64,000 nucleotides of DNA from Rhynchobatus australiae. Lineage: Eukaryota. Positions 3,775 to 61,189 of the stretch are shown in pieces; the stretch's first letter is position 1, and each line of letters starts with the position of its first letter. A model generated the notes under the pieces. The model saw nothing but the letters and a program-made list of their open reading frames with translations, did not search any database and was not told the DNA's origin. The stretch spans positions 13,215,951-13,279,950 of the forward strand of contig JAUZTB010000065.1 in assembly GCA_034780895.1 (NCBI GenBank), written 5' to 3'. The translations under genes were made by a program, and so were the position numbers.

Positions 3775-4030
3775 CTCTTGGTATGTGCTTTCAGGTTTTT
3801 GTACCTTCTGCCCAGTGGGAGGGGAGAGAGGAGAGAATGTCTGGGATGGGTGGGGTCTTTGATGATGTTGGCTGCTTTGGCGNNNNNNNNNNNNNNNNNN
3901 NNNNNNNNNNNNNNNNNNNNNNNNNNNNNNNNNNNNNNNNNNNNNNNNNNNNNNNNNNNNNNNNNNNNNNNNNNNNNNNNNNTGGGATGGGTGGGGTCTT
4001 TGATGATGTTGGCTGCTTTGGCGAGGCAGC
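3775..4030 (-). mobile_element. Rex1/Babar-type LINE 3' fragment spanning an assembly gap
   Basis: AANIIKDPTHPRHSLLSPLPLGRRYK resembles the Rex/Babar ORF C-terminus. Confidence 0.7.
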
Positions 4031-6164
4031 AAGAAGTGTGGACCAATTGTAATAAGAGTTTGTAAGAAGAATGAACATTTTAGTAGTACCATTCACAAAC
4101 TCTGTCTTTAAGAGCGAGCGAAGTACTTTCTGAACTACAGTCACTAGTTGCCATTGTAATGTAAGAAATGCAACAATCGACATGTACACAGAAAGATCCC
4201 CAAAACAAAGGTGACAACCATGTTAAGGAAAATGTTGGCCTGAGATCTCCATGCTTTCTGTTTGAGATGGTGCTGGAAAACTTTTATGTACACTTGAAGG
4301 GTGTTTAACTGCTTGTCTAAAATACCAACTTTGAGTGAACACTCTCAGTACTGGAGTGAGAGCAGTTGTCTGGATCTTTTGCTGGAATCTTTTGGCATGG
4401 AACATGAACTTTCTGACTTGGGCAGGTGAATCACCTGGAGCACCAAACGTAATGAAATGGAAGCTTGTTTTGTTGGGAAGGTGGTGGTTGGGGGGAGAAG
4501 GGAAGCTGAGAGTAAAGTATTTCTTCTCCTTCCTTCTGATATCACTGTCCTTTTGAGTGTTCATGTACCTTTTGAGCGACTTTAATATTAAGCCCTTCAG
4601 CAGAATTATGGACACAACTCTAGGAGCAAGCTTTGGAAGAAAGGTATTGGACATTTTACCTTGGTTGACTGTATAAATATCAACCTACATTTAAACAAAT
4701 GAGATTTTCCTTTACCTTTCTGTAGACTTGGTTTAAAAATGCTCTGTGTAGATTCTGAAATGTAAATGCAATTTAAGATGGCTTTGTTTAACTTTTTCTT
4801 TCTGAGAACAAAGTCTTCAGTATGTATGGTTCCTTATCCAGTGTTGAAAGAGCAGGTACATACTAGCCAGTTGCTCCTCAGCCATGCACTTCCATGAATT
4901 CCAACTTCAAGTAAGCACTTGTCATTCACTGTGACCTGCCTTGCAGTCAGTGCCACAGTGCAAAATTTGATCAACATACCTCAGAAGGTACTAAAATGGA
5001 ATCAAAACTGGAAGATTGCATCAAACGGTAAAGTGTGAAGTGGGACTTTTTTCAGTTTTTAAAATTTGAATTTGACAGAGTAAATATAGAATATAGAATA
5101 TTTTTGCTGCTGGTTAGGAAACTAGATGACTAAATGCAAGATGGTCACTAGACCATTAATGTTGTTTCTCTTTCCATGGATGATGCCTGACCTGGGTATT
5201 TCCAGCATTTTCTGTGTTTATTTCCTTCCCCACAGTGTAGTTAGTGTGAACCTACTCCTGTGTGGAGTACTGAACTGTAAACTATTGCTATATTTAGAAG
5301 GAAGTTAACTAGGCAAATGAAGAAGAATGGGATTATAAAGAAAGTGGGAAGGTATTTATGCAGGGATATCAAAGTTCAACCAATCAGGGCTGGATATTTT
5401 ATACTTTAATTTTTTTTGGAATGTTCTGCTGAATGTGTTATACTATTAACATGTTTTCTAAATATTTATAACAGGATATTACATATTTCCCTATTGGGGA
5501 ATGTATCTAAGCTCCATCAGGAGAAATGAGTTTATTTCCATTGCTCATTGAAATTGTTTTCCAAATTATAAATAACCAACATTATGTTAGACTAAATACT
5601 CTATTTAAAAAGCAGACAATTAAAATTTCATGAGCCTACAGGATGATGGACAAGTAAAGGCTCAATGGTTCATCCAGCCTGCCCTACGTAAATGTTGGAT
5701 TTTGTGCAGCACATGGTTCTTCTTGGCAAAGAGCTATGTGATATCCAAAGGGAGGTAGAAAACTTTTCAAAAAAAAAGTTGATTTCAGAGAAAGGGGATA
5801 ATAATTCCTATGAACAACTTTTTTCTTTTAGAACTTGCCTAAAGCACTGGAGGCTGTAACTGAAAAGGTCAGAGCCTTAATTCCTGGATTGTCTTTTTCT
5901 TCAATTCTTCACTCCAGCCAGGAACAAATCCAGTTCTCATTCAAATAGGCCAGAGATTTAAAAAAAACTCCATGGATTTGCAACTTCATTGCAGCTGTAG
6001 AAAGGAAGTGACAGCAAACTGTGTTCAGTGTTTAGACCTCCATCTGGAACAGGGTCTGCTCTGGAAATACACTTTAGGGAGGATGGCAAGGCTTTGGAGA
6101 GGATATCTGAGAGAATGGCACAAGGAACTTGGGTTGTTGATCTAACAGCAGTGAATAGAGATAG

Positions 6165-7325
6165 GGCCCATTTCCATGCTGTGTGACTTTGGTCCAACTT
6201 ATCCATTCCGACCAAGCTGTTTTTCAGAGCTAATCTGCCTGTGTTTGACCCATATCCCTCGAGGCCTCTTCTATCCATATACCTGTCCAAATATCTTTTA
6301 AATATTGTAACTGTAGCTGCCTTTACAACTTCCTCTGGCAGCTCATTCCNNNNNNNNNNNNNNNNNNNNNNNNNNNGGGGAAAACATTTCTCCTTGGGGT
6401 CCCTTTTTAAACTTGTCCCCTTACCTTAAACCTATGCCCTCTGGTTTTACACTTCCCTACCCTCGGAAAAAGACCCCTTCTCTCCATGGCGTATAAATTT
6501 TATATACCTCCATAAGGTCACCTCTCAACCTCCTCCACTCCAAGGGGGAAGAAGTCCCAACCTACTGAGCCTCTCTGTAAACTCGTGCCCTCCATGAAGC
6601 TCTTCTGCACCCTTTTCAGCTTAATGTCACCCAGCTATAAGAAGGATGTCAAGAACTGGTGAGACCACTCTTGGAGCACATAATACTCCAAGAATGGTCT
6701 CACCAATGACCTGTACAGCTGTAACATGACGTCTCCAACTTCTGTACTCATTGCCTTGACTGATGAAGGCAAGTGTGCCAAACTTCACCTTCACCACACT
6801 CTACCTGAGTCACTGGATTCACAGAACCAAGTACGTGTACCCCGAGGTCTCTATAACAACACCCTCCTGGGCCCTGCCATTTACTGTGCAAGTCCTGCCC
6901 TGGTTTAACTGACCAAAATGTAATACTTCACATTTGCTAAATTCCATCTGCCATTCCTTGGCCCACTTCCGCAGTTCATCTAGATCCTGTTGTAATCTTA
7001 GATATACTTCATCGCTATCCAATTTTGATGTCATCTGTGAACTTACTAGCCATGTTAACAACATTGTGATCCAAATTGTTAATATAGATAACGGTGAACT
7101 CAGCATTGATTTCCTGTGGCACCCCATGTCACAGGCCTCCGATCTGAGAAACAACCCTCCACTACCACCCTCTGAGTCCTTCCACTAAGCCATTTGTTGT
7201 TGTTGTTGTATCCAATTGGCCAGTTCGCCCTGGATCCCATGTAATCTCACCTTCCAGACTAGCCTACCATGAAGGACCTTATCGAAGGTCTTGCTAAAGT
7301 CCATGTGAACAATGTCTACAACCTG
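6165..7325 (-). mobile_element. CR1 LINE, 5'-truncated (RT to 3' end)
   Basis: LQQDLDELRKWAKEWQMEFSKCEVLHFG and DRYMDRRGLEGYG remnants. Confidence 0.9.
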
Positions 7326-7863
7326 CTCCCTGAAGGTTAATGAAGGTCTTCAAAATGAAAAGTGTTGATAGAGAAACTGTTTTCCTGGTGGGGTCAGGAA
7401 CCAGAGATGCAGAATTAAGATAATTAGCAAAAAAAAAGCTTTTTTTTGACCTGTTATGATTTGGCAAGACTGAAACTGATTCATTGGTTTAAGTTTCAAA
7501 AGGAAATAGGATAAATACCTGAAGGAAAAATCTGATGGACTGAAGAAAAATTGCAGGAGGAGTGTGATTAAATTGGATAACTACTGAAAGGAGCCAGCTT
7601 TGGCACGATGGACCACTTTNNNNNNNNNNNNNNNNNNNNNNNNNNNNNNNNNNNNNNNNNNNNNNNNNNNNNNNNNNNNNNNNNNNNNNNNNNNNNNNNN
7701 NNNNNNNNNNNNNNNNNNNGGCACGATGGACCACTTTGCCACTACCCATATTAGATTCTGTAATCACTGTTTTCCTAAGAAGCATCAATTTCTTCTAAAC
7801 TTGTTTGTGCACATCTCAGAGCTGCTGTGTTTTATATATATTTATCTTGGATTTGACTTCTAG

Positions 7864-8025
7864 GTGCTGAACTGTATACCAACAGCCCGTATCCTCGCTT
7901 GTGCACCATCTAACAGTGCCACTGACCTGCTCTGCCAGCGAATTAAGAGGTCTGTTGAGAAAAGACACATTTACCGCCTCAATGCCGTCAGTCGGAGCTG
8001 GGACACTGTCCCGTCAGATGTAAAG
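7864..8025 (+). CDS. MOV10: MOV10 exon, motif Ia (VLNCIPTARILACAPSNSATDLLCQR...VPSDVK)
   Basis: tag| and |gtagg; 162 nt, phase 0; ACAPSNSA motif. Confidence 0.96.
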
Positions 8026-8245
8026 GTAGGACTTTCACCAGTACTCCTCACTCGATTAGCTGGTGTTTTTGCCGTTGTGGAGTGAGTCCAAAACTTGGGT
8101 GCATGAGTGAAACAAAGCCACTAACAAGTACAATAATTAGTGATTTTTACTCTGGTGAAAATGTGGAATTGTACTTCAGGGAATCATAGCATTGTATATA
8201 TGCATTTAAGAAGAAGCTAGAAAAACAAGGGGAGGAAAAATAGTT

Positions 8246-8441
8246 GAGACACAAGAGACTGCAGATGCTGGAATCTGAAGCAACAAACAATCTGCTGGGG
8301 CGACTCAGCTTGTCGGGCAGCATCTACGGGAAGGCCTCAAGACTCCTAATGCAGGGTTTTGACTCCAACCATTGACGATTCCTTTCCTCCCACAGATGCT
8401 GCTCAACCTGCTAAGTTTCTTCAGCAGATTTTTTTGTTGTT
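8246..8441. mobile_element. Palindromic Penelope-derived short element with degenerate hammerhead motif and 15-bp target-site duplication
   Basis: Inverted arms (..TCTGCTG..GGCAGCATCT / AGATGCTGC..CAGCAGA); flanks GGAGGAAAAATAGTT (8231-8245) and GGAGGAAAAGTAGTT (8442-8456). Confidence 0.7.
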
Positions 8442-9009
8442 GGAGGAAAAGTAGTTTATGCTGATGCATTTAGGTGGTGAGGATCATTGTGTAATATATA
8501 AACCCTTTCGTAGACCAACTAGGCCAAGTGGCTCATTTCTGTTTTGTATCATTGAGTGTAATTCAAACTTTGGAATTACTCAGCTTAGCCCCAGATATTA
8601 ATCAGAAAGGAGGCAATAGAATAAGTTCCTTCCTTGATTTAGTGTTACATAGTCACCTTTTCTGCCTGGAGAGTGGATGCTGATTGTGAAATGCCACACC
8701 GTGACTGTAGGAGAGCTCTTTGAGATGGTGACTGAAGCACATTGTCAATGCAGATGGGGGAGCTTTACTCTTTGCCATTTTGTGTTTGATGAAATGGCAT
8801 GGAGAGCCTTGCTCTTCGACCTTGCTGTAGCTGTATTTTGGGACAGTGAGAACTTTAACTTTTGAAGTGAGGTAGTGTTTTAGGTTGGTTTATTTTCTCT
8901 TTTTTTTCTCTCATCTCTCATCACCTTCTTTTGGATGTTGTGTGTCTTGTGCACTACCAAATTATAAGGAAAACAATCCTGCATCTCTATAATATCTGTT
9001 AAACAGTCG

Positions 9010-11240: not shown

Positions 11241-12049
11241 AAGGGGAGGAAAAGATCCTGAAGATGAGATTCACAATAACAGTGCATGTTTATAGAAGCA
11301 TTAAAGTACAAAAATGCTATTGCATTTGCTTAGAGGAGAACAGAATTTAAAAATCCATATATTGTAAACTAATAAAGAACCTTGGTTAAGACCCTCTTAC
11401 AATACTGTGTGCAGTTTAGGTCTCCATATTACAAACAAGATATTTGAAAAAGAAGGTTTGACCTAGGTGATGTTGAACTGAGATAATACAACTCTTCCGA
11501 AAGACTGGACAGGCAGGAGGTTTTCTTCACTGGAGGACACCGTCCTTCAATTTCCACAGAGAACCTTTTCCACTTGTTAAATAGTCCACAAGGGGCCTAA
11601 AATCCAACAAAGATGAGGGAGAAAAAGTGGCATGGGGATCCTGTGGAGGATAAATCTTAGCATGGACTAGTTGGACCAGGTAAATCTATTTGTGCTGTAA
11701 TTACTGCAATTATACATATTGTCTCTTGATCATCCCTGAATTTGGCTGCTGCAGTATTGGCAGCTGTCTCTTCAGCAGCCAAAGCAATAAGATCTAATAT
11801 TCCCTCCATAATCATCGTCCTCTTGCAGCCTGCAGGACTCGATATTGAATGCTCCAACTTCAGTTAATTTGTGACGACTTCCTGTTTGTATCAGGACTGG
11901 CCATTTGTGCTTGTCAGTCCTCTCCTCTTTTTATTTATAACATTCATTTCTACATTCTGGCCTGCTCGGCGTGTCCAGCAGATCAGACTATACAACATCC
12001 CCTCAGACTTCACAACACTAACAGCACATTGCACAGGCAAAGGGACTTA

Positions 12050-12290
12050 AGTCAGCTGTTCACTGGCTACATCATTCCACTCTGTTACAGACATTCCCTT
12101 TATTCCACCCAGTTTCCTCCCTACCTTCTCAGTTAGACCAACTTGCTTTCTTTGTTTCTCAGTTCTGGCGAAGGGTCTGTGACCTGAAACATTAACAGTT
12201 TCTCCTTCTGCAGATGCTGCCTGACCTGGTGAGTTTTTCCAGCATTTTCTACTTTTAATTTCAGGTTTCCAGCAGCTACAATTTAAAATT
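12050..12290 (+). mobile_element. Penelope-derived terminal repeat with hammerhead-like core (12161-12196)
   Basis: AGTT-CTGGCGA-AGGGTC-TGT-GACCT-GAAAC-ATT-AAC, then the AGATGCTGCCTGACCTG..TCCAGCATT family body. Confidence 0.7.
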
Positions 12291-12439: not shown

Positions 12440-13750
12440 GAATGCACATCCTACACCGTGGGGGAACTCTGGGACACGGTTCTGAACGACCACAGGTGCA
12501 ACGTGTCATGAGCCGGAGGAGATCGAGCTCAGAGTTTCAGAGCTTGAGCAAGAGCCGTGATCCATCCATGAGGCTGAGTACTTTGTGGTGGCATGTTTCA
12601 GGAAGTGATCACCCTGCCCCTCCAGTGCAGATGGGGAGAGCCACAGTGATGAGCAGGTAATTCAGGAGACCCCTGAGGGCATCCTGCTCTCTGGCCAGTA
12701 TTCATTTCTGTCTGTCGATGGGAGAGAGCTGAACTACGCCCAAGAATAAGAGAAAAGAGCCTGTCTGTCCTTAAATGTATATACCTAAATTTATAAAGGT
12801 TTTTGTGAACAAGGCAAGTGAGGGCATTGGACAGGAGTGGCAGCTTAATGTCTCTGGTTACAGAGTTTTCAGATATAACACGGGGCTATAACAAGGGAGG
12901 GCAGTGATGAGGTGGTTATTTTCATTATAGAAACAATCACTAGCTGTGAGAAGGTATGAAGTGTTTAAAAACCCATTGTGAAATTGTCCTTTATTGTTTC
13001 TTGGTTCAGTCTCAATGTTGGGAGTCTATGTAGAGCTCCAAACCATCTGAGGGAGATGGAACAAATTTCTGCTGAGTGCACAGACAAGGGCAGTATTAAT
13101 GGGGGATTTCAATTACTATAATATTAACTGAAGCCAATGTAGTAAGTGATCAAAATCATGAATTTGGGATGTGAAGTTGATTTACATCAAGCCTATGTCC
13201 ACAATACACTCAGGGATGAGATTTACTAGAATGGAGTTGAGGATGAGAGACTGGTTATGTGGAGAGACTGGAAAAGTTGTGGCTGTACATAGAGCAGCAC
13301 ACACAAAATGCTGGAGGAACTCAGTGGGTCAGGCAGCATCTATGGAGGGAAATGGGCAGTTGACATTTCTGGCTATACTTAGAACTGGGAAGTTAAAGGA
13401 GGATTTTAATACAGACTCAACATCATAGGAGTCTTGGAAAGAATTGATAAGGTAAACATTTCCCTCTCTTTCCAGAGATCACAATTCTAAATAATTGACA
13501 AAAATGCCTGGGGCAAAGGATAGGTGAGAAGTTTTTAATGAAACAAGTTGTAATCTAGAATACACTGTCTGAGGGCTGGTGGAGGTAGATCAAACAATAA
13601 CTTCCAGAAGGTCATTCAATATCTGAAAGGGAGGAATTTACAGGATGAAGAAAAAGAACAAGATAAGTGGGACTAATTGAATAGTTCCTTCGAGGGTCCC
13701 CATGTGGCCATGATTGAGGAATGATCTCCTGTGCTGTATTAGACTATGTT
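12440..13750 (+). mobile_element. Heavily deleted CR1: ORF1 remnant, endonuclease remnant and 3' tail
   Basis: ORF1-like EC..C..WE region; WQLNVSGYRVFR and VLMGDFN endonuclease motifs; CR1-like 3' end near 13700. Confidence 0.7.
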
Positions 13751-14164
13751 GCACTCATGTTTTTAATATTTACTAATTCACTCTGGGTAGCAGCTGGTGT
13801 TGTTTTGATCATCATTGACCCACCTTGTTGCAACATCTTGGTTTTTCTACTTAATGAGGCTGGTACTTGTATGGTGAATGCACTAGAATTTGAATCTAGT
13901 CACAATATATCATGCAGAGCTATTTTCAAATGGTCTAATGATGATGACATGGAATGATATAGCACAGAATGAGTCCATTCAGCTCATTATGCGTATGGTA
14001 GAGCTGTCCATGTTAGTTCCACTCCACTGCTCTTTCCCTATTGCTCTGCCTTATATGTGTTTATCTAATTTCCTTTTGGGAATTGCTGTTCCACCTTTTC
14101 TCCCCACAGTTTTTTCCAGATCATAACAACTAGCTGTGGAAATAAAATCTTATCATTTTGTTGT

Positions 14165-14440
14165 ACTGAGAGGTCATCCACCTGAAACATTAACTTTTTC
14201 TCTCTCCACAGAATCTGCCTGGCCTGCTGAGTGTTTCCAGCACTTTATTTTTAGCAGGTGTTTAGTCTGTAGCCTGGTTACCAACCCATCTGCCACTAGA
14301 ATCAATTGTTTCTTATTCAAAATTCAGAAACTTAAGTCCAGATAAAGGGTCTGGACCTAAAACGTCGACTCTCCATTTCCCTCCATAGGTGCTGTCCGAC
14401 CCGCTGAGTTCCTCTATTGATTATTGTATTGCTTCAGAAA
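14165..14440 (+). mobile_element. Two tandem Penelope-derived repeats with hammerhead remnants
   Basis: 14335-14370 reads AGTC-CAGATAA-AGGGTC-TG-GACCT-AAAAC-GTC-GACT; a second copy lies about 170 nt upstream. Confidence 0.7.
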
Positions 14441-15006
14441 TGTTAAGTGTTTCTTATAAATCTCTCTCAAACCTTTTCTGTTCTGAAAGAGAACAGAACC
14501 AGCTTTACCAGTCATGAATTACAACTGTACCAGATGAGGTGACTACTTGCACCATTTCCCTTGTTGACCTTCCCCTGTTCAAAAGATATAAAACTAGTCA
14601 TGAAAATAGTTTTGAAGTGTGTGTGCTGAGGGAGATTTAATAACTACAGCTGAAACTGAGCAGTGGAGAGCCACTGGCTATTCATCTCTGTGACATGGGC
14701 TCCATTTTGGTCCAAATACTGGGCTGACTCTCTGCTCCATCCGTTACTTGGAAGGATTGATGGAACATAACCTTCAGTGGGNNNNNNNNNNCATGTACAA
14801 TTGCCCCTGTTTTGCCTTCTTTGAACTGACAGTATTATGTGACATATTAAACAAATATCTCATGGTGTAGTAGAGGGAGCTCTACTGAGATTAGGGTAAG
14901 GTGAATTGGTGGGAGTAGAGTGAGCTTGACTCTGTATCTTACCCATGCTGTATCATGCCTTTTGCACAGTTCCCAGTGTATTGATGCCCACTGTTTACTA
15001 TTCAAG

Positions 15007-17220: not shown

Positions 17221-18639
17221 GTGAGACCTGTACAGGTCCTATCTAGAAAAGCTAGGCCTGTGATGTCTGACCAGTCTTGGGTTTCTTGACTTTATACTCC
17301 CCCTTTCCTTTCCCTTGCTTGAATATGGTTTCATTTGCCTTCTGGTGGCTCACCTGAATATCACTAATTGAAGAATGAGCCTTGATCGTGGGCTTTTATT
17401 TTGCAGGCTATTTAACCAGAGTGGGCACTGCATAAAAGCCAGATCCCATATCTCGCTTCCATACTTTACCAGTAATTTGTGTGTATATATTTTTTGTTAC
17501 TCTTTCTCCTCGACTTGTTTCTTTCTCTCCAAAAAAGCTCTCCATCACTTTGCCCTACAGACGCTCTTTATACCCCATTGAAATTGACATTGTCTATAGC
17601 GCAAAGTGGCTGTCACGTGCTGACCTAATCCCAAACGATGCCTGCCAGTGTAGGGATTGTGACTGGACCTTCAGACCTGCTCCTACTCAAACTCGGGCTC
17701 AAGGTGAATGCAACCCAACTTGCTCCCGAGACTGCCTGCCTTGGATATCAGCGAACGTTTTCTTGGATGTCAGGCACATTGTGAAATGACCCATGGCTCA
17801 AGGAAGCAAGGCTTCCCTTTCCTGTTGTCTTTGAAATAGACCTTTTGAGGTGGAGGAATAGCTCCTGGGGACTGCAGAGGAACCAGGTTTTGCATGCCTG
17901 CAAGATTGAGTTGAGTGGAGGATGGTGTGGAGCTTACAGCAGGTGCCTCTGGCTGGAAAGACCAGCATAGCTGGACCATACTGAATGGCCTACAAGGGAT
18001 GAGCCTGTTGGTGTGGGATTCTCCTAAGTTGCCCGGATCTTGGTCACATGTTTGAGTCTGGAGCATTGTCAAATAGCAGGTGTCATCCTTGATTACTTGC
18101 CTCCCATGGTGATGGCTCAGCCAGGGGCTTAAAATCAAGACAGTTCCTTGTGGAGATGGCTACTTTATTGTGTTGAGGTCTGGGGTAAAGCATGTAAAAC
18201 AATTGTAAACCCTGTTTTNNNNNNNNNNNNNNNNNNNNNNNNNNNNNNNNNNNNNNNNNNNNNNNNNNNNNNNNNNNNNNNNNNNNNNNNNNNNNNNNNN
18301 NNNNNNNNNNNNNNNNNNATGGAGAAGGAGCAAGACACTGAAGATCTTAAGATGGATGCTGTCTTCTACCTGGTGGGGGAAGGTGAAATCCCCTCAGGTC
18401 AGTTTTCCTCCCTTTTGTAGTGGGTTTTGCTGGCTGTAGAGTATACTGGTCAATGGCCGTTATTTGAAGATGTGGTCAAGAAGTTCCTGATACTTGCTCA
18501 CTTCTTCTGAAATGCATGATGTTAATCAGATTTTTTTTGACAAGTTTTTAGGGCAGGAAGACAAATTGAGAATAATCTGAGAAACCTTTCCTGCTTCACT
18601 TCTCTCTCTCTTTCCTGGGATGGGTTAGCAACCAACATC

Positions 18640-19410
18640 CATTATGTGCAGCCAGACACCCACAATAATCTTGACTACCTCTTTTCTTGCTCTGCTTCCT
18701 GCAAGGACTCCATTCTACTCTCCCATGTTATCTCCTTTTGTGCCTGAGACTTTCTATAGCCAATGCACCCCGTTTTCTCAATCCAGGCTTCCCCTCGACC
18801 ATATTTGACTGGGCTCTCACCGTCTCCTCCATGTCCCACACCTCTGCTCTCAGCCCCTCTCCCCTTCCACCCCACCGGCCTTGATGTTCAGTCGATCGCC
18901 CTCTAATTTCTGTCACTTTTGATTCCATCACCAGACGTTCCTCCTCCTCTCCCAACATTCTGAAGGGACCATTCCCCTGTGACTCCCTGGTTCAGTCGTT
19001 CACTGAATTTCTTGCAGCAGGTTCCCTTGCAATTGCAGGAGATGCAATCCTTGCCCTTTTACCTTGTATCTTCCCACCAGTCAATGACTCCCTCAGTCCT
19101 TCCAGGTGAAGCTGGGAGTCATCTGCACTTCTTTCAATTTAGTGCACTACATTTGATGTTCCAGATGGGTGCTCATCTACATTAGAGAAATTAAATGCAG
19201 GTTGTTGACTGCTTTACAGAATGCCCCTGTGCAGTCTGCGAGCACAACCCTGACCTTTACAGTGAGCTGTCAGTTTAATTCTCCATCCTACTCCCATTCT
19301 GACCCCTGTCTTTGGCCTCCTACACTGTTTCATCAAGCCCAACACAAGGACTGGGAACAGCAACTCATCTTCCATCTTGGCATGCTGCAGTGCTTGGGAT
19401 TCCATTAGAA
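18640..19410 (+). mobile_element. Penelope-like element remnant (RT C-terminus plus GIY-YIG endonuclease)
   Basis: LDY..S.SASCKDSI; FQVK..CTSFNLV..I.C..C.LIYIRE.K; C-terminal EQQLIFHLGMLQ..G. Confidence 0.8.
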
Positions 19411-19644
19411 CCATAGAACAATACAGCACAATACAGGCCCTTCGGCCCACCGTGTTGTGCCGCCCATCAAACTACACCTCCTGCCATCTAACCCTTTCCT
19501 CCCGCATATCCCACTATCCCACACTCATCCATATGCCTGTCCAACAACCTCTTGAACCTGTCCAACCTATCTGCCTCCACCACCACCCCAGGCAGCACAT
19601 TCCATGCACCAACCACTCTCTGGGTGAAAAACCTCCCTCTGACA
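19410..19644 (-). mobile_element. CR1 3' end, little diverged (closely similar tail at 20510-20570)
   Basis: CATAGAACAATACAGCACAATACAGGCCCTTCGGCCCACC terminus. Confidence 0.85.
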
Positions 19645-20724
19645 NNNNNNNNNNNNNNNNNNNNNNNNNNNNNNNNNNNNNNNNNNNNNNNNNNNNNNNN
19701 NNNNNNNNNNNNNNNNNNNNNNNNNNNNNNNNNNNNNNNNNNNNGATTCCTCTTCTGATCTCTGAGGCAAGATTCCTTCCAGTTGCTGCCTGTGTTTGTC
19801 CTGAGGAAGTATCCTGACTCTTGTACCAGTGTGCTGCATTTAGGTTCTGAGTTTGCTCAACATTGTGACAGAGGAGGGGTGGTGTTACTGGTCAGGGACA
19901 CTGTTACAGCTGCAGGAAGGGAATTCACTGGTCCTCCACCTTTTCTGACTTAAACCCTGGGATATTCTCCCCAGTGACACAATGCGAGCACCTTCACCAG
20001 GAGATCTGCAAACATTTAAGAAGACAGCTCACGACACTTTCTCAAGGACAGTTAGGGATTGCTTGCACATGCTGGCCTTGCCAATGACATCCAGGTCCTG
20101 AGCAAAGAATCAATTGAGATGGAGCTGCAGAACAATCGCACTGAACATTGTGCATCATGGCACGCTGCTCTGGGGCCTGTTCCCAGGGACAGGCATTGAG
20201 ACAGTACCAACTGTTGCCAGTAAATTATTGACTTGATAATTGGCAGCCTCCAAACTGCCTCAACGTTGTGCACTAAACACTGCTGTCTGGCACATTCCAG
20301 AATTCAAGACTATCTGCAGAGGAATGCACTCAAACTGGGTGTGGTCACCACAAAGGTTCTGTAGGGTGGAGCTGCAGTTTGGGCTCGCTGATCATTGCAC
20401 ACTGAGAGCCTGCATTGTAACATCCCCTCATCTGGGCCCAAGAAACGTATCTGAAGTGAGGGAGAGACCGTGCTGATGTAATGTGAATCTCATCGGCAAA
20501 TGGAATGCCATAGAACAATACAGCACAATATAGGCCCTTCGGCCCACCATGTTGTGCTGCCCATCAAACCACAACCCTCTGCTTTCTACCGTCAAGCCAA
20601 TTCCTAATCCACACAGCCAAGCTTCCCTGGATCCCGTGGCTCCTGACCTTTCTATAATTCTATAATTAATTCGGTATTTTCAGATAATCTGCCTTTCTTG
20701 TCCGAATCAGAATCAGTCCATTCA

Positions 20725-21135
20725 GGTTTAAGGTCAGCACCTATAACATTGTTGTTCTATCTCCATAGATGCTCACTGATCTGTTGAGTATTTTCAGCAT
20801 TCTCCTTTGTTTCAGATTTCCATGGACTGCTGTAGTCCTGCATTTAGTTATAACAATTTTATTTTCCTCTGTACTTCCCTTATTCATCTGCTTCTATTTA
20901 CATCTCCGGACTGATCAGCTCCCTTTCTCCACCTAGACAATGGTGGTCTCCACCCTATCACATACATTCCTTTTATTCCCTTCAACTTAAAACACACTGG
21001 TTTCTTTTTCCGATCTGATGAGGGGACATTTGACTTGAAAAGTTGATTCTGTTTCTCTTTCCACAGATGCTGCTTGACCATGAGCTTTTCTGGTATTTGT
21101 TTTTATTTCAGATTTTCCAGCATCTGCAGTTTTTT
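20725..21135 (+). mobile_element. Two tandem Penelope-derived terminal repeats; the second keeps CTGATGA...GAAA (21015-21040)
   Basis: CTGATGA-GGGGAC-ATTT-GACTT-GAAA, then CCACAGATGCTGC..CCAGCATCTGCAG. Confidence 0.7.
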
Positions 21136-21625
21136 GGTTTTTAAACACTGCTCCTTGGGGAGTTCTGTACCAGAGCAGGAGCTAAGCAGAACTTAGCTCC
21201 TGAGTTATTGAACAATTTTCAGATGCAGAGAATTTGGAAAAGTTTTGGGAATGCATCTGTAAACAGCAGTAGGCAAACTATATAGTTAATTTCAAACAGG
21301 AGACTGTAAATCATGACATAATGGGGTGGGGGGAATTGTGTTTATAGAATTGGGTTACAATCAGCCATGATATACCTGAACGATAAAAATGTCACTTGGG
21401 GTTAAACTGCTTCCTCTTGTTTGGATCTTCTGCTGGGTAAACACAAACGAACGGACAGATACATTGTTAATTGGGTTAAGTGTGAACTTCCCCACACTCT
21501 TCACCCAACCTTTAACCTGTTTGGGCAAATGGCCTGTTCTTGTGCTTTAATTTCAAAATGAATGGAAAAAGTTTGCAATATGTTTGACTATTTGCAATAG
21601 CATTTGTGGTTGCTGTGTTTATTAG

Positions 21626-24774: not shown

Positions 24775-25340
24775 TTCAGCCCAGCTTTAATACTACAAGA
24801 CGTTGGTAAGGCCACATTTAGAGTATTGCATAGTTCTGGTCATCCTGCTACAGAAAGGATGTCATTAAACTGGGAAAGGGTACAAAAAAGATTTAGGAAG
24901 ATTCCAATTACCAGGACTGGAGGGTTTGAGTTACAAGGAGAGGCTGAATAGGCGAGGACTTTTTTTCCCTGGAGTGTAGGAGGTTGAGGGGTGAGCTAGA
25001 GATTTATAAAATCATGAGAGGAATAGATAAGGTGAATAACCACAGTCTTTTCCCCAGGATAGGGTAGTCTAAATTTGGAGGTCAAAGAATTAAAATGAGA
25101 AGGGAAAGATTTAAAAGGGATCTGAGGGGCAACTTTTTCACACACAGAATGGTGAGTATATGGAACGGGCTGCCGAAGAAAGTGGTAGAGGTAGGTACAT
25201 TTGGACAGTTGTATGGATAGGAAAGGTTTAGAGAGATATGGGCCAAACGCAGGCAAATGGGACTAGCTCAGTTAGGTGACTTCGTCAGATGGACGAGTTG
25301 GGCCAAAGGGCTTGTTTCTGTGGTGTATAGCTCTATGACT
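24775..25340 (+). mobile_element. CR1 LINE 3' fragment
   Basis: ERVQKRF remnant; CR1 3'UTR ending TTGGGCCAAAGGG..CTCTATGACT. Confidence 0.9.
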
Positions 25341-25779
25341 ACTCTTCTCCACTAACCACTCCCAAACTGTAATCAACCTGGAATAATCTGTGAACTGCCC
25401 TACTACAGGTGGGGTGGGTGGGGGGTGGTGGAATAACAAGTTGCCTTCAGGAAGTCCTGAAGCATTTTAGAATCAATTTAGTACTTTTGAAGTACAGTCA
25501 GATGACCATTTGAGGAATGTCCACATAATCCAGGTTGGGGTGTTGGTTGGGGCCTCAGTGTTAGCCAATGGTACTCCATGCTTCACTTCCAATTATACCA
25601 TGGAATCCTGAGAAGATGGCCTTGGTTTAACACTAACTGAAAGAAGGCAATTCCAACTCAACAGCATCCCCTATATGACTGACTGCAGACTATCCATGTA
25701 TAATGGTCTCAAGAGGGAATTGAACGTTACAACAGTGCAAGTGCTCCCCACTTATCTGAGTCTACAAGAGCCTTTCTAG

Positions 25780-26200
25780 AATTGTACAGAAACTGGCCCT
25801 TCAGCTCACCATATTCATGCCAACCTTTTTGTCAGCCTACACTAATCGTATTTGTATTAGCTATTCAGGTTGGAGAAACTTGGATTGTTTTCTCTGGAGC
25901 ATCACAGGCTGGGGGTGAGCTGATAGAACTGTATAAGATTAAGAAAGGTGTAGATAGGGTAGATGGTTAGAATCTTTTCCCATGGTGGAAAAGTCAAATA
26001 CACAGTGGTAGGTGCCTGTAATGCACTGCCCAGGGAGGTGATAGAAGCAGATACAATAGCAACATTTAAGAGGCATTTAGACAGGCACATGAACAGGTGG
26101 AGGAATACAGACCATGTGCAGGCAAATAGGATTAGTAAGATTGGAATCATGGTCAGTACAGACACAGTGGGCTGAAGGGCCTGTTCCTGTGCTGTTTTAT
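25780..26200. mobile_element. Back-to-back CR1 3' fragments (- tail, then + fragment)
   Basis: NALPREVIEADTIATFKRHLDRHM remnant; tails in opposite orientation. Confidence 0.8.
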
Positions 26201-26421: not shown

Positions 26422-26579
26422 GTAGGTGAAGTCTCCTCCCCCATTAAAATGTAGCTGATTCTGGTAGTAATGCCTACTGCCTATTGTTCTTGTGACTTTC
26501 TAAAATCTGGTCCCAGGTGGGGCTGGTGGTGTTGCTGGGGTCTCCCAACCCTCCAGATTATACAGGAATCTCAAGGAAA

Positions 26580-26655
26580 TTTATCTCTGGCATTTCCACA
26601 GTGTTCTGGAAACTCATCTTCATTTCTAGAACACTGTTGAAATGCCAGAGATAAA
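26580..26655. repeat. Near-perfect inverted repeat: 33-bp stem, 10-nt loop
   Basis: TTTATCTCTGGCATTTCCACAGTGTTCTGGAAA / TTTCTAGAACACTGTTGAAATGCCAGAGATAAA, 31 of 33 pairs Watson-Crick. Confidence 0.95.
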
Positions 26656-27226
26656 ACCCCATGAGCTGGGGTGTGAGAGTTGTTTAGATTTTTAAGTGCA
26701 TTCATTTACTAATTGTAAAAGTTTACCAAGTATGGAAAACTTTTTTCAGCACATTGACGTTGTGTCTTTCAGCCTGGGGTCAAACAGTCAGAAGCAAGAG
26801 AACATGTTTCTGTCTAGCCTGAAATCTAGTTTATGGAGTGGGATGGTCAAGTTCATTCCTGCTTCAATTACCTGGTTCCATCGGGGGCAGTGAGAATGAC
26901 TGTTTTCCTTTGGATCAAACACTGAAACACCCTGTATGTTGTTGTCTGTGTTCATTGTCTGCATTTGGGGAAAGACTAGGAATAGAAGGCAGGAATGATC
27001 AGAGCCATCAATTTACCCTCCCGACCCGAGCCAGAGGTCGTAACCTTTTGATACCTGATGTCAGCCAGCCAGGCTGTAGCTGGAGTCACATGCACAAGTA
27101 GTCAGATGGTCTTGGGGGAATAGAGGGACAGGGTTGAGGAGAGATCTGAACAGGATTTTGGGAGTGCATTACAAAGGAGCTGTACAAAGGTTACTTGCCA
27201 CTGATTCTACTCCTTTTCATTGTCAG

Positions 27227-27345: not shown

Positions 27346-28220
27346 GTGATGACCCAAGCTACTTTGAAGTAGCTACATTTTAAATGAAATCTGCTGTCCA
27401 ACCACAAACAACTGCATGGCAGGAACATTGAACTTTTCTGTTCCCGGTAACCCACATCCCGTGTTTCTTTCCCACTCTCACCAGTCCACCCAGATTCTCC
27501 CTCCCACTGTTCACCTTTTCCATCCATCTACCACCTGGTTCCAACTGCCCACTTATCCACCTGGGTTTCTTATCCTTTGGGTCATCTTTCCCTGCCTGGT
27601 TCCATCTCTCCCATTTCTTTACCTCCAAGATGCTGCTTCATCTGCTGACTTCTTCCAGCAGTTGTCTCTAGATTCCAACCTCCAAACAACCTTCCCCGCT
27701 GCACCATTTTTGCTGTATAATACACATAGAATCTCCTTTAAATGGAACATGGCCCTTGAGAAATGCAGTGTTTGCCTTTAAGTTTTTTTGGTACTTCTGA
27801 TACCTGGTTATGGTGCTTAAGGATATAATTAAGTTTCAGAGGCTGAATTAAATTATTTTGCTTAATAATGGGTAGAGCACAGGTCTTGAGAGTTTAGAAA
27901 TAAGTCTGAACATTTAAAAAGATTTTCCACTGAGTAGTAAATGGGAAGTAAACACCTATTCTTTGAAGTTTGAAGGGAAAAATTGAAGTATTAAAATCAA
28001 AGTTCATGTTTGTAACTGAAGAAATAACTGCAGAATCAATATAATGTGCAGGTCAGAAATAGACATCAGCTTGGAAGGAGGATTGGAGGAGCTAGTAGTT
28101 CATTCTGATTGGATTTTCCTGTATGAAACACTATCTACTGTTCAAAGTACTGAGGGGATAAAAACCATTGAACTGGTGGAATATTGTGCAATGAACTGAT
28201 TATTTGTTTTGACTTGTCAG

Positions 28221-29467: not shown

Positions 29468-30609
29468 TGCAATGCTAAATGTCAGTTGCATGTCCTAGTC
29501 TCCACTGTTAACTGATTTCTGCTGCACAAAGAACCATAGAATTGGTGGGAATGAATGACAGACAGGTGGTTGACAGGACAAGCATTCAGCAATATTGGAA
29601 CTCCAGCACCAGCTTGATATCAGAAAGGATCCAACACCTAAGGAACATTTAATCCAGTTAAAGGTTGGAGAGGAATAGGAATAGCTGTTGGATTGAGTTG
29701 GTTGTGTATTGCATACAGCTACCTTACACTAGTGTATTATTGAGTTATTCACACTGACTATGTGGATGGGAAAGGAAAACTTCNNNNNNNNNNNNNNNNN
29801 NNNNNNNNNNNNNNNNNNNNNNNNNTATGTGGATGGGAAAGGAAAACTTCTCTAGCCAACCACTTAAAACAAAATGCTGGAAAAAACAGTACATCAGGTA
29901 GCATCTGTGGAAAAATAAGTAACATTTCAGATTCCTCCAAAAACCAGAAATCTAGGAGAAAAATTCACATTGCTGAGAAAGCCAGGCAGCTTGTTTTTTC
30001 ACCTGCACAGTGCAATGCAGTCAATGATAGTGGAAGTGAGTAGTAACAGCAGTAGGAAAAACCCAACTTACACTGACAGGAAACAAGATCATGACTGATT
30101 TTGCACCACTTCCCCATAGTGTGTACAGGAGAAAGGTTCCTGCCTCTGCTACTTGAGTTTATGCAACTGTCTGCACCCATCTGACCCAACATCTGAAAAT
30201 ATCACCAGGGTCCAGAGAAAGCAAGTGTTGAGCAGTTAACCACATTTAAAGCTAAAAGGCAAAATGTCAGAAGTGGATGTTTGGGAAAGCATTGGTATTG
30301 CATAGGATGATAGCAAGTCATTTGCCATCCACTTTGTACATGGCCAGGGTAAAGGTAAACCCCTCTAGCCAACCACTAAAAACAAGTGAAAACAAAATGC
30401 TGGAAAAAAAATTCAGTACACCAGGCAGCATCTGTGGAGAAAATAAAGTAACATTGATTCCTCCCATGAATGCAAGTTTTAAATCAGGGGGGCTGGTAGA
30501 ACAAAAGGGAATCTGATAGGACAAGATTAGGCTAATGTTGTTGAGGTAACAGCCATTTACAGATCTGTCTGAATGAGGAAGCAAGAGTGGAGGGAGACTG
30601 ATGTGACTC

Positions 30610-34099: not shown

Positions 34100-34520
34100 A
34101 ACAAGGGAATGCAGATACTGGAATCTGGAGCACAATCTGCTGTAGGAACTCAGCAAATCAAGCAGCATCTGTGGAAGGAAAGGAATGAGAGTTTGGGCCA
34201 AAACCCCACATCAGGACTGAGTGGGGATTTTGGCTGTTTGTACAAGATGGCATCTGAAGTGAGGAATTGCAGAGTGAATCCTTGCATCCTTTGGTGCAAA
34301 ATGGCACCCAGCATAAACAGAGGGGGAATGGTGAGAAATGAGTTAAGGTGATTGGTGGACAGGAAGGGTGTAAGATGACACCAGTCCTCAGTCCACCAAT
34401 CTCAGACTCCTTTCTTACCACTCCTTTATTACTGGCCATCTTACCTCAGTCCAATGGTTTTGGCCCAAAACATTGATCTTTCCTCCTCAGATGTTGCTCC
34501 ACCCAAGTTCCTCTAGCGGA
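34100..34520. mobile_element. Inverted pair of Penelope-derived terminal repeats
   Basis: GCAGATACTGGAATCTGGAGC..GCAGCATCTGTGG..TCAGGACTGA on the left; reverse partner at 34445-34520. Confidence 0.65.
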
Positions 34521-35379
34521 GGGTCAACATGGATTTTAGCAAGCAATGTCTACTATTCAAACTCAAATTCAAGACAATTTCCCCATGCACAAAGCCATGG
34601 TGACAATTCCTTGCCTTTCCAAATAAAAATGAAGTCTCAATCTCTTCCAATAACTTTCCCACCACCAATGCAAAGCTCAGTGTAGTTCCCTGGTTTATCG
34701 CTGCTGCATATTAGCTCTTCCCCAGTCTTCTGGTACCTCCCATAATTAAAGATATAAAAATCTCTACCAGGATCCCAACCTCATTCCTCACTTCCCCTAA
34801 CATTCTGGGATAGGCCTTGCTTAGGCCCCAGGGATTTATCCACCTTCATGCATCAAGACCTCTAACACTCCCTCTAATCTTTTAGATGCTCTGGAGCATC
34901 ATTACTTCCATCCCACCTCAGACTCACTAAGTTCCACATCCTCCTCCACAGTAAATTTAGACAAGTATTCATTCGAGACCTCATCCATTTCACATAGCTC
35001 CACACAGATTACCCCAGTGATCAAGGGGATTGACTCGCTCCCTTAACCCTTATGTGAAACTGAAATGCACACAATTAACCAGACCATAAAGTAACTAGGT
35101 TGTGACTGAACTTTAGAAAGCCATTTTGCACCAAATGATGCAAGGATTCACTCTGCAATTCCTCACTTCAGATGCCATCTTGTACAAACAGCCAAATTAA
35201 ACAATCTTAGATTGGAAGATTCAGATAACCAGCCTCCTTGACAATGCCCCCATTTCACAACACTGTGGACTTGACACTTACCACAAGCCAAAATTGCATA
35301 GTGGGCAACTTTGTCAAGCACCTCCACCTAGTTCAGATGGTTGAGTTTCTAGTTGTCTTGTTCTTTCATTGAACAATTC

Positions 35380-36180
35380 CACTTATTCTCTAGCTCAAAA
35401 GCATGGCTATGGGAATATGCAAGGTCCAAGCTATTTCCATCTCAGAGGACAAGTCTTCCTTTTGTCCTAGTCAGGTCCCCCACCTTAAGTACTTGGCAAC
35501 AATTGATGCAGCTTCCTGCACTGAACTTGAGTTACTTCTGCTGCCAATTTCCATACTGCCCTTCTGGAATTTGTCAAAGGATTATCTCTTAAGCAGCATC
35601 CATTGCAAGTTCAGATACCGAAATCTTGACTACACTTCCTCCCAACTTGCTCTTTGCAAGAACTGGTACCTTCTGCTTTTTCCATCAGATGAGCCTCATC
35701 ACACCAGTGCTCCCAAGGGGGGTCTCCACTGTGGCTCCCCCATTATCACAAACAAGATGCAATTTAGGCCCTGACCAGTTGTTTCCTATCTCTACCCTTG
35801 GACCTACCGAAACTATGTATTCTATCAATCCTCATTTTCCACACCAAATTCAAATAGATTGTTTTGCTATTTGGTACCTTGAGATTTCACTAGAAATCTT
35901 TCCCCTCTTAGCATTCCAACTTTGGGTCCACCCTTCCATCTTCATCTTTCCACAGCCTTTTCCCATGCAACAGCAGATGCAATATCCTCTTTCCATTGTT
36001 AAATGGAACACAAGTCCTTTTACATGCACATCTGCAATTACTCATACTGTGGTCCCCACCACATTGCAAAGTAGTCACCTGATTTTCTCCGGAGTACTTG
36101 CTTTCAATCTGCATGTGCAACCAAACTTCCATTTTGTTAGTAATTTTTCATCCTACTAACATGTGGTCTCCTGCACAGCT
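35380..36180 (+). mobile_element. Old Penelope-like RT/GIY-YIG remnant
   Basis: AMG motif and LDYTSSQLALCK (compare LDYTSSHPxSCK). Confidence 0.6.
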
Positions 36181-37291
36181 CCAACAAGTCTCAAGGTTTA
36201 GGAGTAGCACCCCTCTGTTGTAGGCTGGAAGACAATACAGAATTCAACTTGATTAAATAAAGATTCAAACTGGCCAGTTTTACAAGGTTACCACCTGCAA
36301 TATTAACTCAGTTTTTCTCCAAGGACATTGCCCAATCTGCTGGGCATTTCCAGAATTCTCAAATCTCTTCCACACCACCCCCAACCACACACATTAGTCC
36401 TGCATTTCAAGGCTTTTACATCAGAGGCAGACATACAGCACAGAAACAGACCCTTCAGCTCACCAACTATGCCAACCATCAACCACTGCCTACATAAAAT
36501 TCAATTCTCCTCTGCATACATGGCAATTTAGTGGCCAACTGACCCATCAACCCACACTTTTGGAATGAGAAAATCCATGCAGTCATGGCGAATTTGTAAA
36601 CTCCACACAAGGAATCTGGGTTTATAGTGCTGCTACAGCAGCACTACTAGTTGCAGTCCTTTAATGAAGGCAGCTAGGGAAATAACCAAATGGCTTTGTA
36701 AATGGAATCCTGTAACAAGCAAGCCTGGCCTCACCCTATCCATCTCACCCACCTTTCAACTTTTCTTCCCAGTTCTGATAGTCTTCTACCCAGACATTAA
36801 CCTCTTTCCACTGTTGCAGCCTGGCCTGTTAAGCATTTCCAGACTTTTTCCATTTAGAATCTCCTACTATAGGATTGTAGAGTTGTAAAGATACACAAGC
36901 TAGTGGGAAGCTATTGGTCCCAAATTGTTACAGAACAGTACAGCACAATACAGGGTCCTTCAGCCCACTATGTTGTGCTGACCTTTAAACCTCACCCAAG
37001 ACTATCTAACTCCTTCCTCCTACATATCCCTCAAAATAAAATCTCTTGCATTCAAAAAGATGACTGCAGACCATTTTCAAAAGATGGTTAATTCAACCCC
37101 ATTGGTAACAGGTTTTACCAGTTAGAGCAGATATGGGACAAATGACAGCTGTAAACAAATCATGCTACATCTGTTAGGTTTACTGTAACTTTCCATTTCA
37201 AATTCCAAGTACTTTCATGTGAAATCTTGAACAAAATGAAAACTTTTACTGCAATTTCAATTACAGGCACAGTTTAAAGTGTTCCATTGAA

Positions 37292-60200: not shown

Positions 60201-60469
60201 GCCCCACTCCAATTTGCATTCTTCCAGCTGAAAGCACAGCCACATTCCACTCCCTTTCACCCCCACACATTAATCACTACCAATCCACGGTAGTCTGGTC
60301 GAAAACCCCTCAACCTCCCACCCCAACTTTGCACACCTTAGCACCATGCCAGATCACCAACAGTCATTATTTCACTCCCCCGCACCCCCCCAACCACATT
60401 CCCCTATCATAGCCCAATACATCACTCCTCTGCTGAGGGCTCCCTATCACTTTCCCCTACTCCACCCAA

Positions 60470-61060
60470 CGGGACAGCACCCCGCCTGCCCGACGACCCC
60501 ACCTCCGCTTTACCCCCTCCCCACCGGCCCGACCGCTCGCCCAAGCTGCGAGGGGTGCTGCTCCCCAGAGCAGCGGAGGGAGAGGGGATCGGCCGGGCCC
60601 GGCCCGCCGCCACCGCCCGCTCTCTCCCTCCGGCCTCTACCCGCTGCGAGCAGCGCCGAGGCGGCCAGCAGCCTGGCCACCACCCAGCCCTGGGCGTGGC
60701 GGCCAACCAGCGGTCACACAAGATTAAAACAAAAACCGCCGGCCTCGGCGACACCGTCCGCAAACGGGGGCCCGGACCCGCCGACCTCACCTGTCCCGAG
60801 CGCTCAACTCGATGCCGGACCCGGTCAACGCGCGGCCTCCACCTCAGCTCCGCTCGGCAAGGAGAAGGAGGTTGGGGGGGAGACGGGGGGCGGTTAATGA
60901 GCAATTGCCCACACCCCTCCCCCACGTGACATCACCCCACGTGACTTTCCCCACTAGGAATCACGGGACAATCCATACGAATTGAGCATCTCCCGCCTTG
61001 CCTCTTAAAGGGGCACTCCCCCATGGAAAGGACCGGCCATTCAGCCCGTCGAATCTGTTC
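60470..61060 (-). promoter_or_regulatory. CpG island / RHOC promoter with two tandem GTCACGTGGGG E-boxes (CACGTG at 60923-60928 and 60938-60943)
   Basis: The main CpG-dense, GC-rich segment of the window; lies 5' of RHOC. Confidence 0.8.
60791..60900 (-). other. RHOC: Probable non-coding first exon of RHOC (5' boundary approximate)
   Basis: Strong donor ACAG|GTGAGG on - strand at 60791/60790 inside the CpG island; RHOA and RHOC have untranslated first exons. Confidence 0.65.
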
Positions 61061-61189
61061 TCCAGTCAACTCATTGTCGTCAAACGAAAGCGAAATACAA
61101 ATATGTGCTGCGAATAAAGGTGAAACGGTGGATGCACTGAACTTTCCTGGGCATTTGAGAAGGAGCTGCATCAAAGGTTATTCTGGAAA

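What the first reader, a model, noticed from the sequence alone, without database searches (positions are those of the whole stretch)
14335..14370. Minimal type I hammerhead ribozyme architecture in a dispersed Penelope-derived repeat family
Seen: this copy reads AGTC / CAGATAA / AGGGTC-TG-GACCT / AAAAC / GTC / GACT. That maps onto stem I (AGTC:GACT), a mutated CUGAUGA box, stem II, a mutated GAAAC and a GUC cleavage triplet within an ACGT palindrome. Other copies keep complementary parts: CTGGCGA..GAAAC at 12165-12190, CTGATGA..GAAA at 21015-21040 and CAGTCCTGATG on the - strand near 34210. Together they imply the consensus CAGTC-CTGATGA-AGGGTC-NN-GACCY-GAAAC-GTC-GACTG. About 15 related copies occur (near 5140, 8250, 12160, 13300, 14165, 14335, 20725, 21010, 27630, 29870, 30390, 34100, 34445, 36290, 36770, 42460), some without the ribozyme part. 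Known: Penelope-like elements carry minimal type I hammerheads that cleave as dimers through a palindromic stem III. Inference: this is an abundant ribozyme-bearing family, possibly partly non-autonomous (retrozyme-like), mobilised by the Penelope RT/GIY-YIG elements whose remnants lie at 18.6-19.4 kb and 35.4-36.2 kb.
Basis: partly seen in the sequence, partly recalled or inferred. Interest (0 to 1): 0.7.

Follow-up and report, generated by a model that had tools for sequence, protein, structure and literature searches.

The report
Penelope retroelement ends with minimal hammerhead
This stretch is a worn, likely inactive copy of the small self-cutting RNA motif carried at the end of a known class of jumping gene (Penelope-like elements), one of an estimated half-million such end fragments in this genome, whose fixed start and end points suggest the RNA is usually copied into DNA uncut.

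Summary
The motif is real and of a known kind. It is the minimal type I hammerhead in the pseudo-LTR of a Penelope-like element (RT plus C-terminal GIY-YIG, Neptune/Nematis-type linker). The copy at 14335 has lost U4, G8 and G12 and is very likely dead.
Genome-wide, 2,586 plus 57 copies match intact-type core and stem patterns (some carry A9C). A 600-kb sample extrapolates to about 0.39-0.59 million copies, about 2% of the DNA. Four subfamilies keep the core and vary at free positions, with one compensatory stem I change.
The retrozyme reading is not supported: neighbours are head-to-head (18) rather than tandem (2), short and long copies share alleles, and the repeat runs straight into the ORF at both ends.
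Copies end at two fixed 3' sites (the PLE tail) and often start about 4 nt before the core, 32 nt upstream of the cut site, so templates were mostly uncut. Cleavage itself was not tested.
The scan has noted this family before in three other windows of this genome and in other genomes.

The parts
14335..14370 (+). Decayed minimal type I hammerhead: stem I AGUC/GACU, core with U4A, G8A and G12A, bulged A, 4-bp stem II, ACGU palindrome, GUC triplet (cut site would follow 14366)
14335..14439 (+). Whole short insertion: starts at A(-4) of the ribozyme, ends at the first tail end (about +100)
14323..14335 (+). Candidate target-site duplication, left copy (8 nt exact; extends to about 14 nt with one mismatch and one indel)
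   Evidence: read
14433..14446 (+). Candidate target-site duplication, right copy
   Evidence: read
11822..12283 (+). Endonuclease-end/3' UTR remnant (11822-11986) followed by an older-subfamily hammerhead and tail (12155-12283)
8245..8442 (.). Head-to-head pair of copies (minus 8332-8245, plus 8337-8442 starting at -4)
13290..13375 (-). Family copy lacking the 5' part of the ribozyme
14164..14251 (+). Decayed family copy
18601..19404 (+). Broken RT-thumb and GIY-YIG remnant of the element, cut off by another repeat before its pLTR
20715..21136 (+). Two decayed copies (20715-20822, 20999-21136)
34100..34230 (-). Decayed copy with long tail
34443..34518 (+). Decayed copy
35357..36359 (+). Broken RT/EN remnant running into its own decayed 3' hammerhead (36283-36359)
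36764..36847 (+). Decayed copy
5135..5224 (+). Decayed copy
27613..27679 (+). Tail-only copy
29867..30444 (-). Two partial copies (29932-29867, 30444-30389)

Best explanation
The stretch is a mutated, likely inert copy of the minimal hammerhead in the terminal repeat of a Penelope-like retrotransposon, and such short copies were likely made by that element's own reverse transcriptase from mostly uncut RNA. Shown: the motif lies about 325 nt after the GIY-YIG stop codon and again just before the ORF's 5' part; copies end at two fixed 3' points (about +97 and +132, counting C3 as 0); about 30% start at -8..0; many sit head-to-head. Inferred, by analogy with the anole element: the protein nicks both DNA strands and starts reverse transcription at the two tail sites inside the RNA. 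Initiation on the 5' repeat of a transcript would reach the RNA's 5' end (or a strong stop) after only 100-135 nt and give the short copies. Initiation on the 3' repeat would give 5'-truncated or full copies. Priming from both nicks would give the head-to-head pairs. The ribozyme is kept by selection in the source elements and would cut as a dimer or with protein help, but cutting is apparently not the step that defines the inserted copy.
For: Linkage: a same-strand copy lies 100-600 nt after the endonuclease match in 16 of 28 loci, opposite strand 0 of 28, same strand at 900-1400 nt 2 of 28. Ribozyme and tail run into shared ORF-proximal sequence in 5 of 30 loci. Pfam GIY-YIG passes its cut-off in 1 of 10 stop-free fragments and is weak in 3 more; RVT_1 is weak in 2. 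A CX2-5CxxC linker is present in 12 of 27 broken copies. 3' ends fall in two clusters about 35 nt apart, as for the PLE tail (PMC11167929, PMC8557442). 5' ends: 20 of 65 N-free intact-core copies start at -8..0 against 14 over -9..-50 (p 3e-7, run on 64 because one value was lost in retyping). 18 of 64 tail-selected copies start at -7..+2. By eye, 8 of 20 copies of a second subfamily with a different upstream sequence do the same. Orientation: 18 head-to-head, 2 tandem, 0 tail-to-tail among 147 hits; 14 of 30 short copies have an inverted partner. Target duplications of 9 nt or more in 5 of 31 short copies against 3 of 259 mismatched controls. Selection on the fold: subfamilies differ at N7, C17, loop 2 and downstream sequence but keep the core. 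The stem I pair next to the core is C-G in 84 of the first 100 listed of one form and U-A in 42 of 57 of the other (counted by eye; one event).
Against: No cleavage or RNA-end data. 4 of 64 tail-selected copies do start at +26..+28, where a cut RNA would begin (one is an inversion junction), so a minor cleaved-template route is not excluded. What fixes the -4 start is unresolved: it matches an initiator-like CCAGTCC, but also lies at a polypyrimidine-CAG acceptor and at the base of stem I, and a cap-G signal did not hold up. Arkhipova et al. (PMC3846280) explain head-to-head pairs by self-priming on an antisense template instead. No intact ORF was seen in the loci fetched. One subfamily has C at A9 or an insertion there (13 of 20). 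Covariation rests on one stem I change; the stem II closing pair showed none (p 0.51), and an unpaired control pair was also associated through subfamily structure.
Confidence: 0.8

Rival explanations
1. The short copies are a separate non-autonomous, SINE- or retrozyme-like element transcribed from -4 to the tail and mobilised in trans by the Penelope-like protein.
For: Short copies greatly outnumber ORF-bearing ones (coverage 90 at +80 against 1-8 upstream of -40 in 105 hits), have a fairly sharp 5' start and some have target duplications. One locus holds three hammerheads in tandem.
Against: No fixed allele separates 36 short from 61 long copies (five positions at p<0.05 among about 138, none fixed). 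The same short/long mix occurs in a second subfamily. The tandem spacer is unique in the genome. No arrays were found.
Confidence: 0.1
2. The ribozyme processes multimeric transcripts into unit-length or circular RNA that is then reverse-transcribed (model of Cervera and de la Pena 2014); copies span the cut site because circles are re-ligated.
For: The core is conserved across subfamilies. A re-ligated circle would also yield copies that span the site. A few copies start at +26..+28.
Against: A circle has no 5' end, so it does not explain the pile-up at -4. No peak at +28 relative to neighbouring positions among 100 of 221 copies lacking GAAA (by eye). In the anole element, core mutants did not affect insertion in vitro (PMC11167929).
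Confidence: 0.12
3. The -4 pile-up is not an RNA end but a preferred stop or template-switch point of the reverse transcriptase at the ribozyme hairpin or the polypyrimidine tract.
For: Many junctions there are inversions with microhomology, starts spread from -8 to +2, and the cap-G test failed.
Against: A hairpin would be expected to stall the enzyme at its 3' foot (+32), not after it has been copied (inference). One near-full-length 5' end also begins just before the core (L351).
Confidence: 0.3

Closest known systems
Minimal hammerheads (min-HHR) in metazoan PLE pseudo-LTRs (Cervera and de la Pena 2014, PMC4209133; parts 1-2 of 4 read: results, discussion, part of methods; 2 of 3 supplementary files searched, file 1 not searchable)
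   Same: Short stem I, unpaired nucleotide between A9 and G10.1, palindrome at 15.2-16.2 without helix III, position in the pLTR, mostly single dispersed copies, several families per genome.
   Different: Stem II here is 4-5 bp (7-8 bp in S. mansoni). Total copies number in the hundreds of thousands, though those matching intact-type patterns (about 2,600) are on the order of the 4,000-9,000 reported for coelacanth and Xenopus. The parts read name no cartilaginous fish, and five such terms had no hit in the two supplements searched.
Poseidon element of Anolis carolinensis, PAc (Frangieh et al. 2024, PMC11167929; parts 1-2 of 4 read)
   Same: Ribozyme at the pLTR-ORF junction, two RT start sites 100-150 nt downstream giving a 30-40 nt tail, both strands nicked and extended, uncut RNA as insertion substrate.
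   Different: This element has the CX2-5CxxC linker absent from Penelope/Poseidon. Its ORF likely starts in the tail rather than at stem II (inferred). PAc cleavage was shown to need the protein; nothing is tested here.
Neptune/Nematis-type EN+ PLEs (Craig et al. 2021, PMC8557442; passages read)
   Same: C-terminal GIY-YIG with two cysteines between the motifs, Zn-finger-like linker, DKG motif, inverted 5'-truncated copies, tail.
   Different: No tree was built, so Neptune versus Nematis is not decided; Neptune is the likelier one in a vertebrate (bioRxiv 10.64898/2026.07.22.740005 found Neptune and Poseidon in vertebrates).
Metazoan non-LTR retrozymes (PMC7229834, passages read; bioRxiv 10.64898/2026.07.22.740005, parts 1-3 of 5 read)
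   Same: Type I hammerhead, PLE-related sequence, many dispersed monomers.
   Different: Retrozymes are defined by tandem units and circular RNAs (canonical ribozymes in PMC7229834; the preprint also admits minimal ones). Here copies are single or head-to-head and continuous with the PLE ORF.

Membership tests
PLE minimal hammerhead (family level) | CUGANGA and GAAA core with NUH triplet | tested here: met
   639 exact; 2,586 (pattern allows A9C) and 57 with broader patterns; controls 0
PLE minimal hammerhead (this copy) | Intact catalytic core | tested here: not met
   U4A, G8A, G12A; G8 and G12 are the proposed acid and base (PMC6155905, passage)
PLE minimal hammerhead (family level) | Unpaired nucleotide between A9 and 10.1; G10.1-C11.1 pair | tested here: met
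   A after A9 in 76 of 85 sampled copies; G-C in the majority of three subfamilies, G-U in the fourth
PLE minimal hammerhead (family level) | Short stem I and stem II that fold | tested here: met
   5-bp stem I and 4-bp stem II are in the minimum-energy fold of 3 of 3 intact copies, z only -1.2 to -1.8; one compensatory stem I change
PLE minimal hammerhead (family level) | Palindrome replacing helix III | tested here: met
   ACGU, or its CpG-decayed forms, in all four subfamilies
PLE minimal hammerhead (family level) | Self-cleavage as dimer or with protein | not testable with these tools
   Computed double-hammerhead (-19 to -20 kcal/mol) is less stable than an extended duplex (-34 to -35) for 38-nt copies; energies omit tertiary contacts
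EN+ Penelope-like element | Single ORF with RT and C-terminal GIY-YIG | tested here: met
   Order seen in broken copies; Pfam GIY-YIG above cut-off in 1 of 10 fragments, RVT_1 below cut-off in 2; no intact ORF seen
EN+ Penelope-like element | pLTR at both sides of the ORF, 30-40 nt tail, inverted 5' copies | tested here: met
Neptune/Nematis clades | CX2-5CxxC linker before the endonuclease | tested here: met
   12 of 27 broken copies
Neptune/Nematis clades | Placement in an RT tree | not tested
   No reference PLE proteins were fetched
Non-LTR retrozyme | Tandem arrays of ribozyme-bearing units | tested here: not met
   2 tandem pairs among 147 hits; TRF 0 rows in the window; one unique local trimer
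Non-LTR retrozyme | Non-coding lineage independent of the ORF-bearing element | tested here: not met
   No fixed differences between 36 short and 61 long copies
Non-LTR retrozyme | Circular RNA | not testable with these tools
   Only contigs were available
Rfam hammerhead families | Covariance-model match | tested here: not met
   No hit at E<=1 in the window or E<=10 in 10 intact-core loci

The most novel reading that the evidence does not exclude
The short copies are a genome-scale record of the Penelope mechanism: the RNA begins at the first base of the ribozyme's stem I, reverse transcription starts at two fixed internal sites from both nicked strands, and only uncut RNA is inserted. The conserved hammerhead would then act as a switch on the 5' leader (removing the leader and start region, or limiting activity when RNAs dimerise) rather than as the processor that makes the transposition template.
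Probability: 0.3. Interest if true: 0.55.

Novelty: new member of a known kind. Interest (0 to 1): 0.28.

Why it matters
The motif and its host element class are published, so the finding as given is ordinary. Its value is scale. About half a million copies in four subfamilies give good statistics on insertion ends, and these bear on an open question: what the PLE hammerhead is for. The ends agree with the in vitro internal-initiation model from the anole element in a different clade. They argue against cut RNA as the usual template and point to one testable position (-4) as the RNA start or a strong RT stop. I found no paper describing this for cartilaginous fishes, but Lunse et al. 2017 (recalled) was not held, Repbase/Dfam could not be checked, and unseen supplements may list it.

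Tried and rejected
Rfam scans: no hammerhead hit.
Pile-up of 5' ends at the cut site: one search hinted at it (4 of 64). Among 100 of 221 copies lacking GAAA in register (by eye) about 15 start at +27/+28, about 27 at +24/+25 and about 13 at +29..+32; the rest are deletions or inversions. In 30 fetched loci, 15 were inversion junctions and all 4 clean +28 starts abutted another copy. Rejected as a main route.
Cap-derived G before A(-4): G in 23 of 48 non-C positions, p 5e-4, but 5 of 7 G cases in 30 loci came with an inverted partner. Not supported.
Spliced upstream exon: short copies share no upstream sequence and duplications often lie within 0-16 nt. Not supported.
Tandem family: the spacer at L371 is unique.
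Expression: no RNA holder listed. Contigs of 4 runs from 4 studies hold relatives but cannot show ends, strand or RNA status.
Pfam on the most decayed fragments: no relevant hit in 5 of 5. Protein atlas gave no result.
Formal pair counting on alignment A3 was not run because the rows were chosen by a pattern that forces the stems.
A strand error for L038 was corrected. My first reading 'Penelope/Poseidon' was dropped after the linker test.

Full report
Numbering: 0 is C3, the first C of CUGANGA (window 14339). The GUC triplet is +25..+27 and a cut RNA would start at +28.

1. Observation. The letters are as described. The intact form exists elsewhere: 639 exact matches to a 31-nt pattern, control 0; 2,586 and 57 matches to broader patterns. 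Three intact copies fold stem I (5 bp) and stem II (4 bp, tetraloop, after an unpaired A), with modest z-scores of -1.2 to -1.8. The window copy folds into an unrelated hairpin. It carries U4A, G8A and G12A; G8 and G12 are the proposed catalytic acid and base (PMC6155905, passage). It is very likely inert. Rfam does not detect these minimal forms.

2. Abundance. Sixty 10-kb stretches at regular steps on five large scaffolds (600 kb, 96 kb of it N) gave 105 hits with a long profile and 131 with an iterated short one; reversed controls gave 0. This extrapolates to 0.39-0.59 million copies and about 2% of the DNA, assuming the sample is representative. None of the 147 sampled copies passed a strict intact-hammerhead descriptor, so intact cores are under 1% of copies.

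3. What it is part of. Copies found with the window's remnant at 18.6-19.4 kb have a same-strand repeat 100-600 nt downstream in 16 of 28 loci, against 0 on the opposite strand and 2 at a control distance. Long young copies run from the endonuclease through about 325 nt of 3' UTR into the ribozyme. Walking upstream, 5 of 30 loci show ribozyme and tail continuing into shared ORF-proximal sequence. Chaining these overlaps by hand gives a unit of about 2.86 kb and an ORF of about 825 codons, close to the 838-842 aa in rotifer elements (PMC3846280, passages). Pfam GIY-YIG passes its cut-off in 1 of 10 fragments; RVT_1 is weak in 2. A CX2-5CxxC linker precedes the endonuclease in 12 of 27 broken copies, which marks Neptune/Nematis rather than Penelope/Poseidon (PMC8557442, passages). 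No intact ORF was seen. The host looks like a ray or shark from my recall of these repeats; I did not test that.

4. Selection on the fold. Four subfamilies, defined by letters downstream of the core, keep CUGANG, GAAA, the bulged A and the ACGU palindrome. They differ at N7, C17, loop 2 and downstream (11, 24, 10 and 65 of 274 copies assigned). The stem I pair next to the core is C-G in 84 of the first 100 listed copies of the short-loop form (12 are C-A, all in a CpG context) and U-A in 42 of 57 of the long-loop form (8 U-G, 3 C-G, 4 C-A) (by eye). This is one compensatory event. Against: the stem II closing pair shows no covariation (p 0.51), an unpaired control pair is also associated through subfamily structure, and one subfamily has C at or before A9 in 13 of 20 copies.

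5. Ends. 3' ends cluster near +97 and +132, matching the 30-40 nt tail, which in the anole element marks two internal RT start sites (PMC11167929). 5' ends pile up just before the core: 20 of 65 at -8..0 against 14 over the next 42 nt, mode -4; 18 of 64 in a set chosen only by tail sequence; 8 of 20 by eye in the older subfamily. Only 4 of 64 start at +26..+28, and a genome-wide look found no peak there. Neighbouring copies are head-to-head 18 times, tandem twice and never tail-to-tail among 147 hits. Among 15 inversion junctions the partner's 5' end lay at -4..+6 in 10. Target duplications occur in 5 of 31 short copies against 3 of 259 controls and in 5 of 16 without an inverted partner. The window copy starts at -4, ends near +100 and has a candidate duplication.

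6. Mechanism. Shown: geometry, ends, orientation and linkage. Inferred: the element's protein nicks both strands and initiates at the tail sites. On the 5' repeat this gives 100-135 nt copies ending at the RNA start or a strong stop; on the 3' repeat it gives longer truncated copies; priming from both nicks gives head-to-head pairs. The template usually spans the cut site, so it was uncut or re-ligated; the fixed 5' end favours uncut linear RNA. The cause of the -4 end is open. An initiator-like sequence, a splice-acceptor-like tract conserved in at least three subfamilies and the base of stem I coincide there; the D. virilis intron also ends at helix I (PMC4209133). The cap-G test failed. Self-priming on antisense RNA is a published alternative for the inversions (PMC3846280).

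7. Retrozyme reading. Not supported: no arrays, no fixed allele between 36 short and 61 long copies, and the single tandem trimer found has a spacer unique in the genome.

8. Novelty. Minimal hammerheads in PLE pLTRs, including fish elements, are published (PMC4209133). A preprint included one chondrichthyan when surveying tandem retrozymes. My searches found no description of this family; one supplement of PMC4209133, the preprint's supplements and Lunse et al. 2017 (recalled) could not be seen. The scan already holds similar unchecked notes for this genome and others; they repeat the reading and are not evidence. Verdict: new member of a known kind, interest 0.28.

Noticed in passing
window 34229-34305 and 35120-35196: 77-nt arms 99% complementary around 814 nt of old repeats, abutting a minus-strand family copy and the RT remnant; a recent inverted duplication or a scaffold artefact.
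   Followed up: no
window 26570-26665: Hairpin with 43-nt arms and 10-nt loop, MITE-like; Rfam microRNA hits below gathering score.
   Followed up: no
L371 about 580-760 (G000:C1:2828180-2828340): Three hammerheads in tandem (the first partial), about 71 and 76 nt apart, joined by a hairpin-bearing spacer found nowhere else; two intact cores could form an intramolecular double hammerhead.
   Followed up: partly
subfamily B, e.g. L105, L135, window 8337-8442: Core reads CUGAUGC-A: A9 replaced by C, or C inserted between G8 and A9, in 13 of 20 copies.
   Followed up: partly
just 5' of the core in long copies, e.g. L017, L407, L119: A polypyrimidine tract ending in CAG, like a 3' splice site, is kept across subfamilies whose upstream sequences differ.
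   Followed up: partly
listed matches: Recurrent internal deletions between the two TCGAC words of the ribozyme, removing half of stem II and GAAAC.
   Followed up: no
window 60274-60931: GC-rich stretch (51% in 60001-62000) with overlapping open frames, possibly a CpG island or first exon.
   Followed up: no
window 19411-19479, 20508-20576, 36954-36997 and 24955-26200: Other dispersed repeats, by eye the 3' ends of CR1-like LINEs (name recalled); one cuts off the 18.6-19.4 kb remnant.
   Followed up: no
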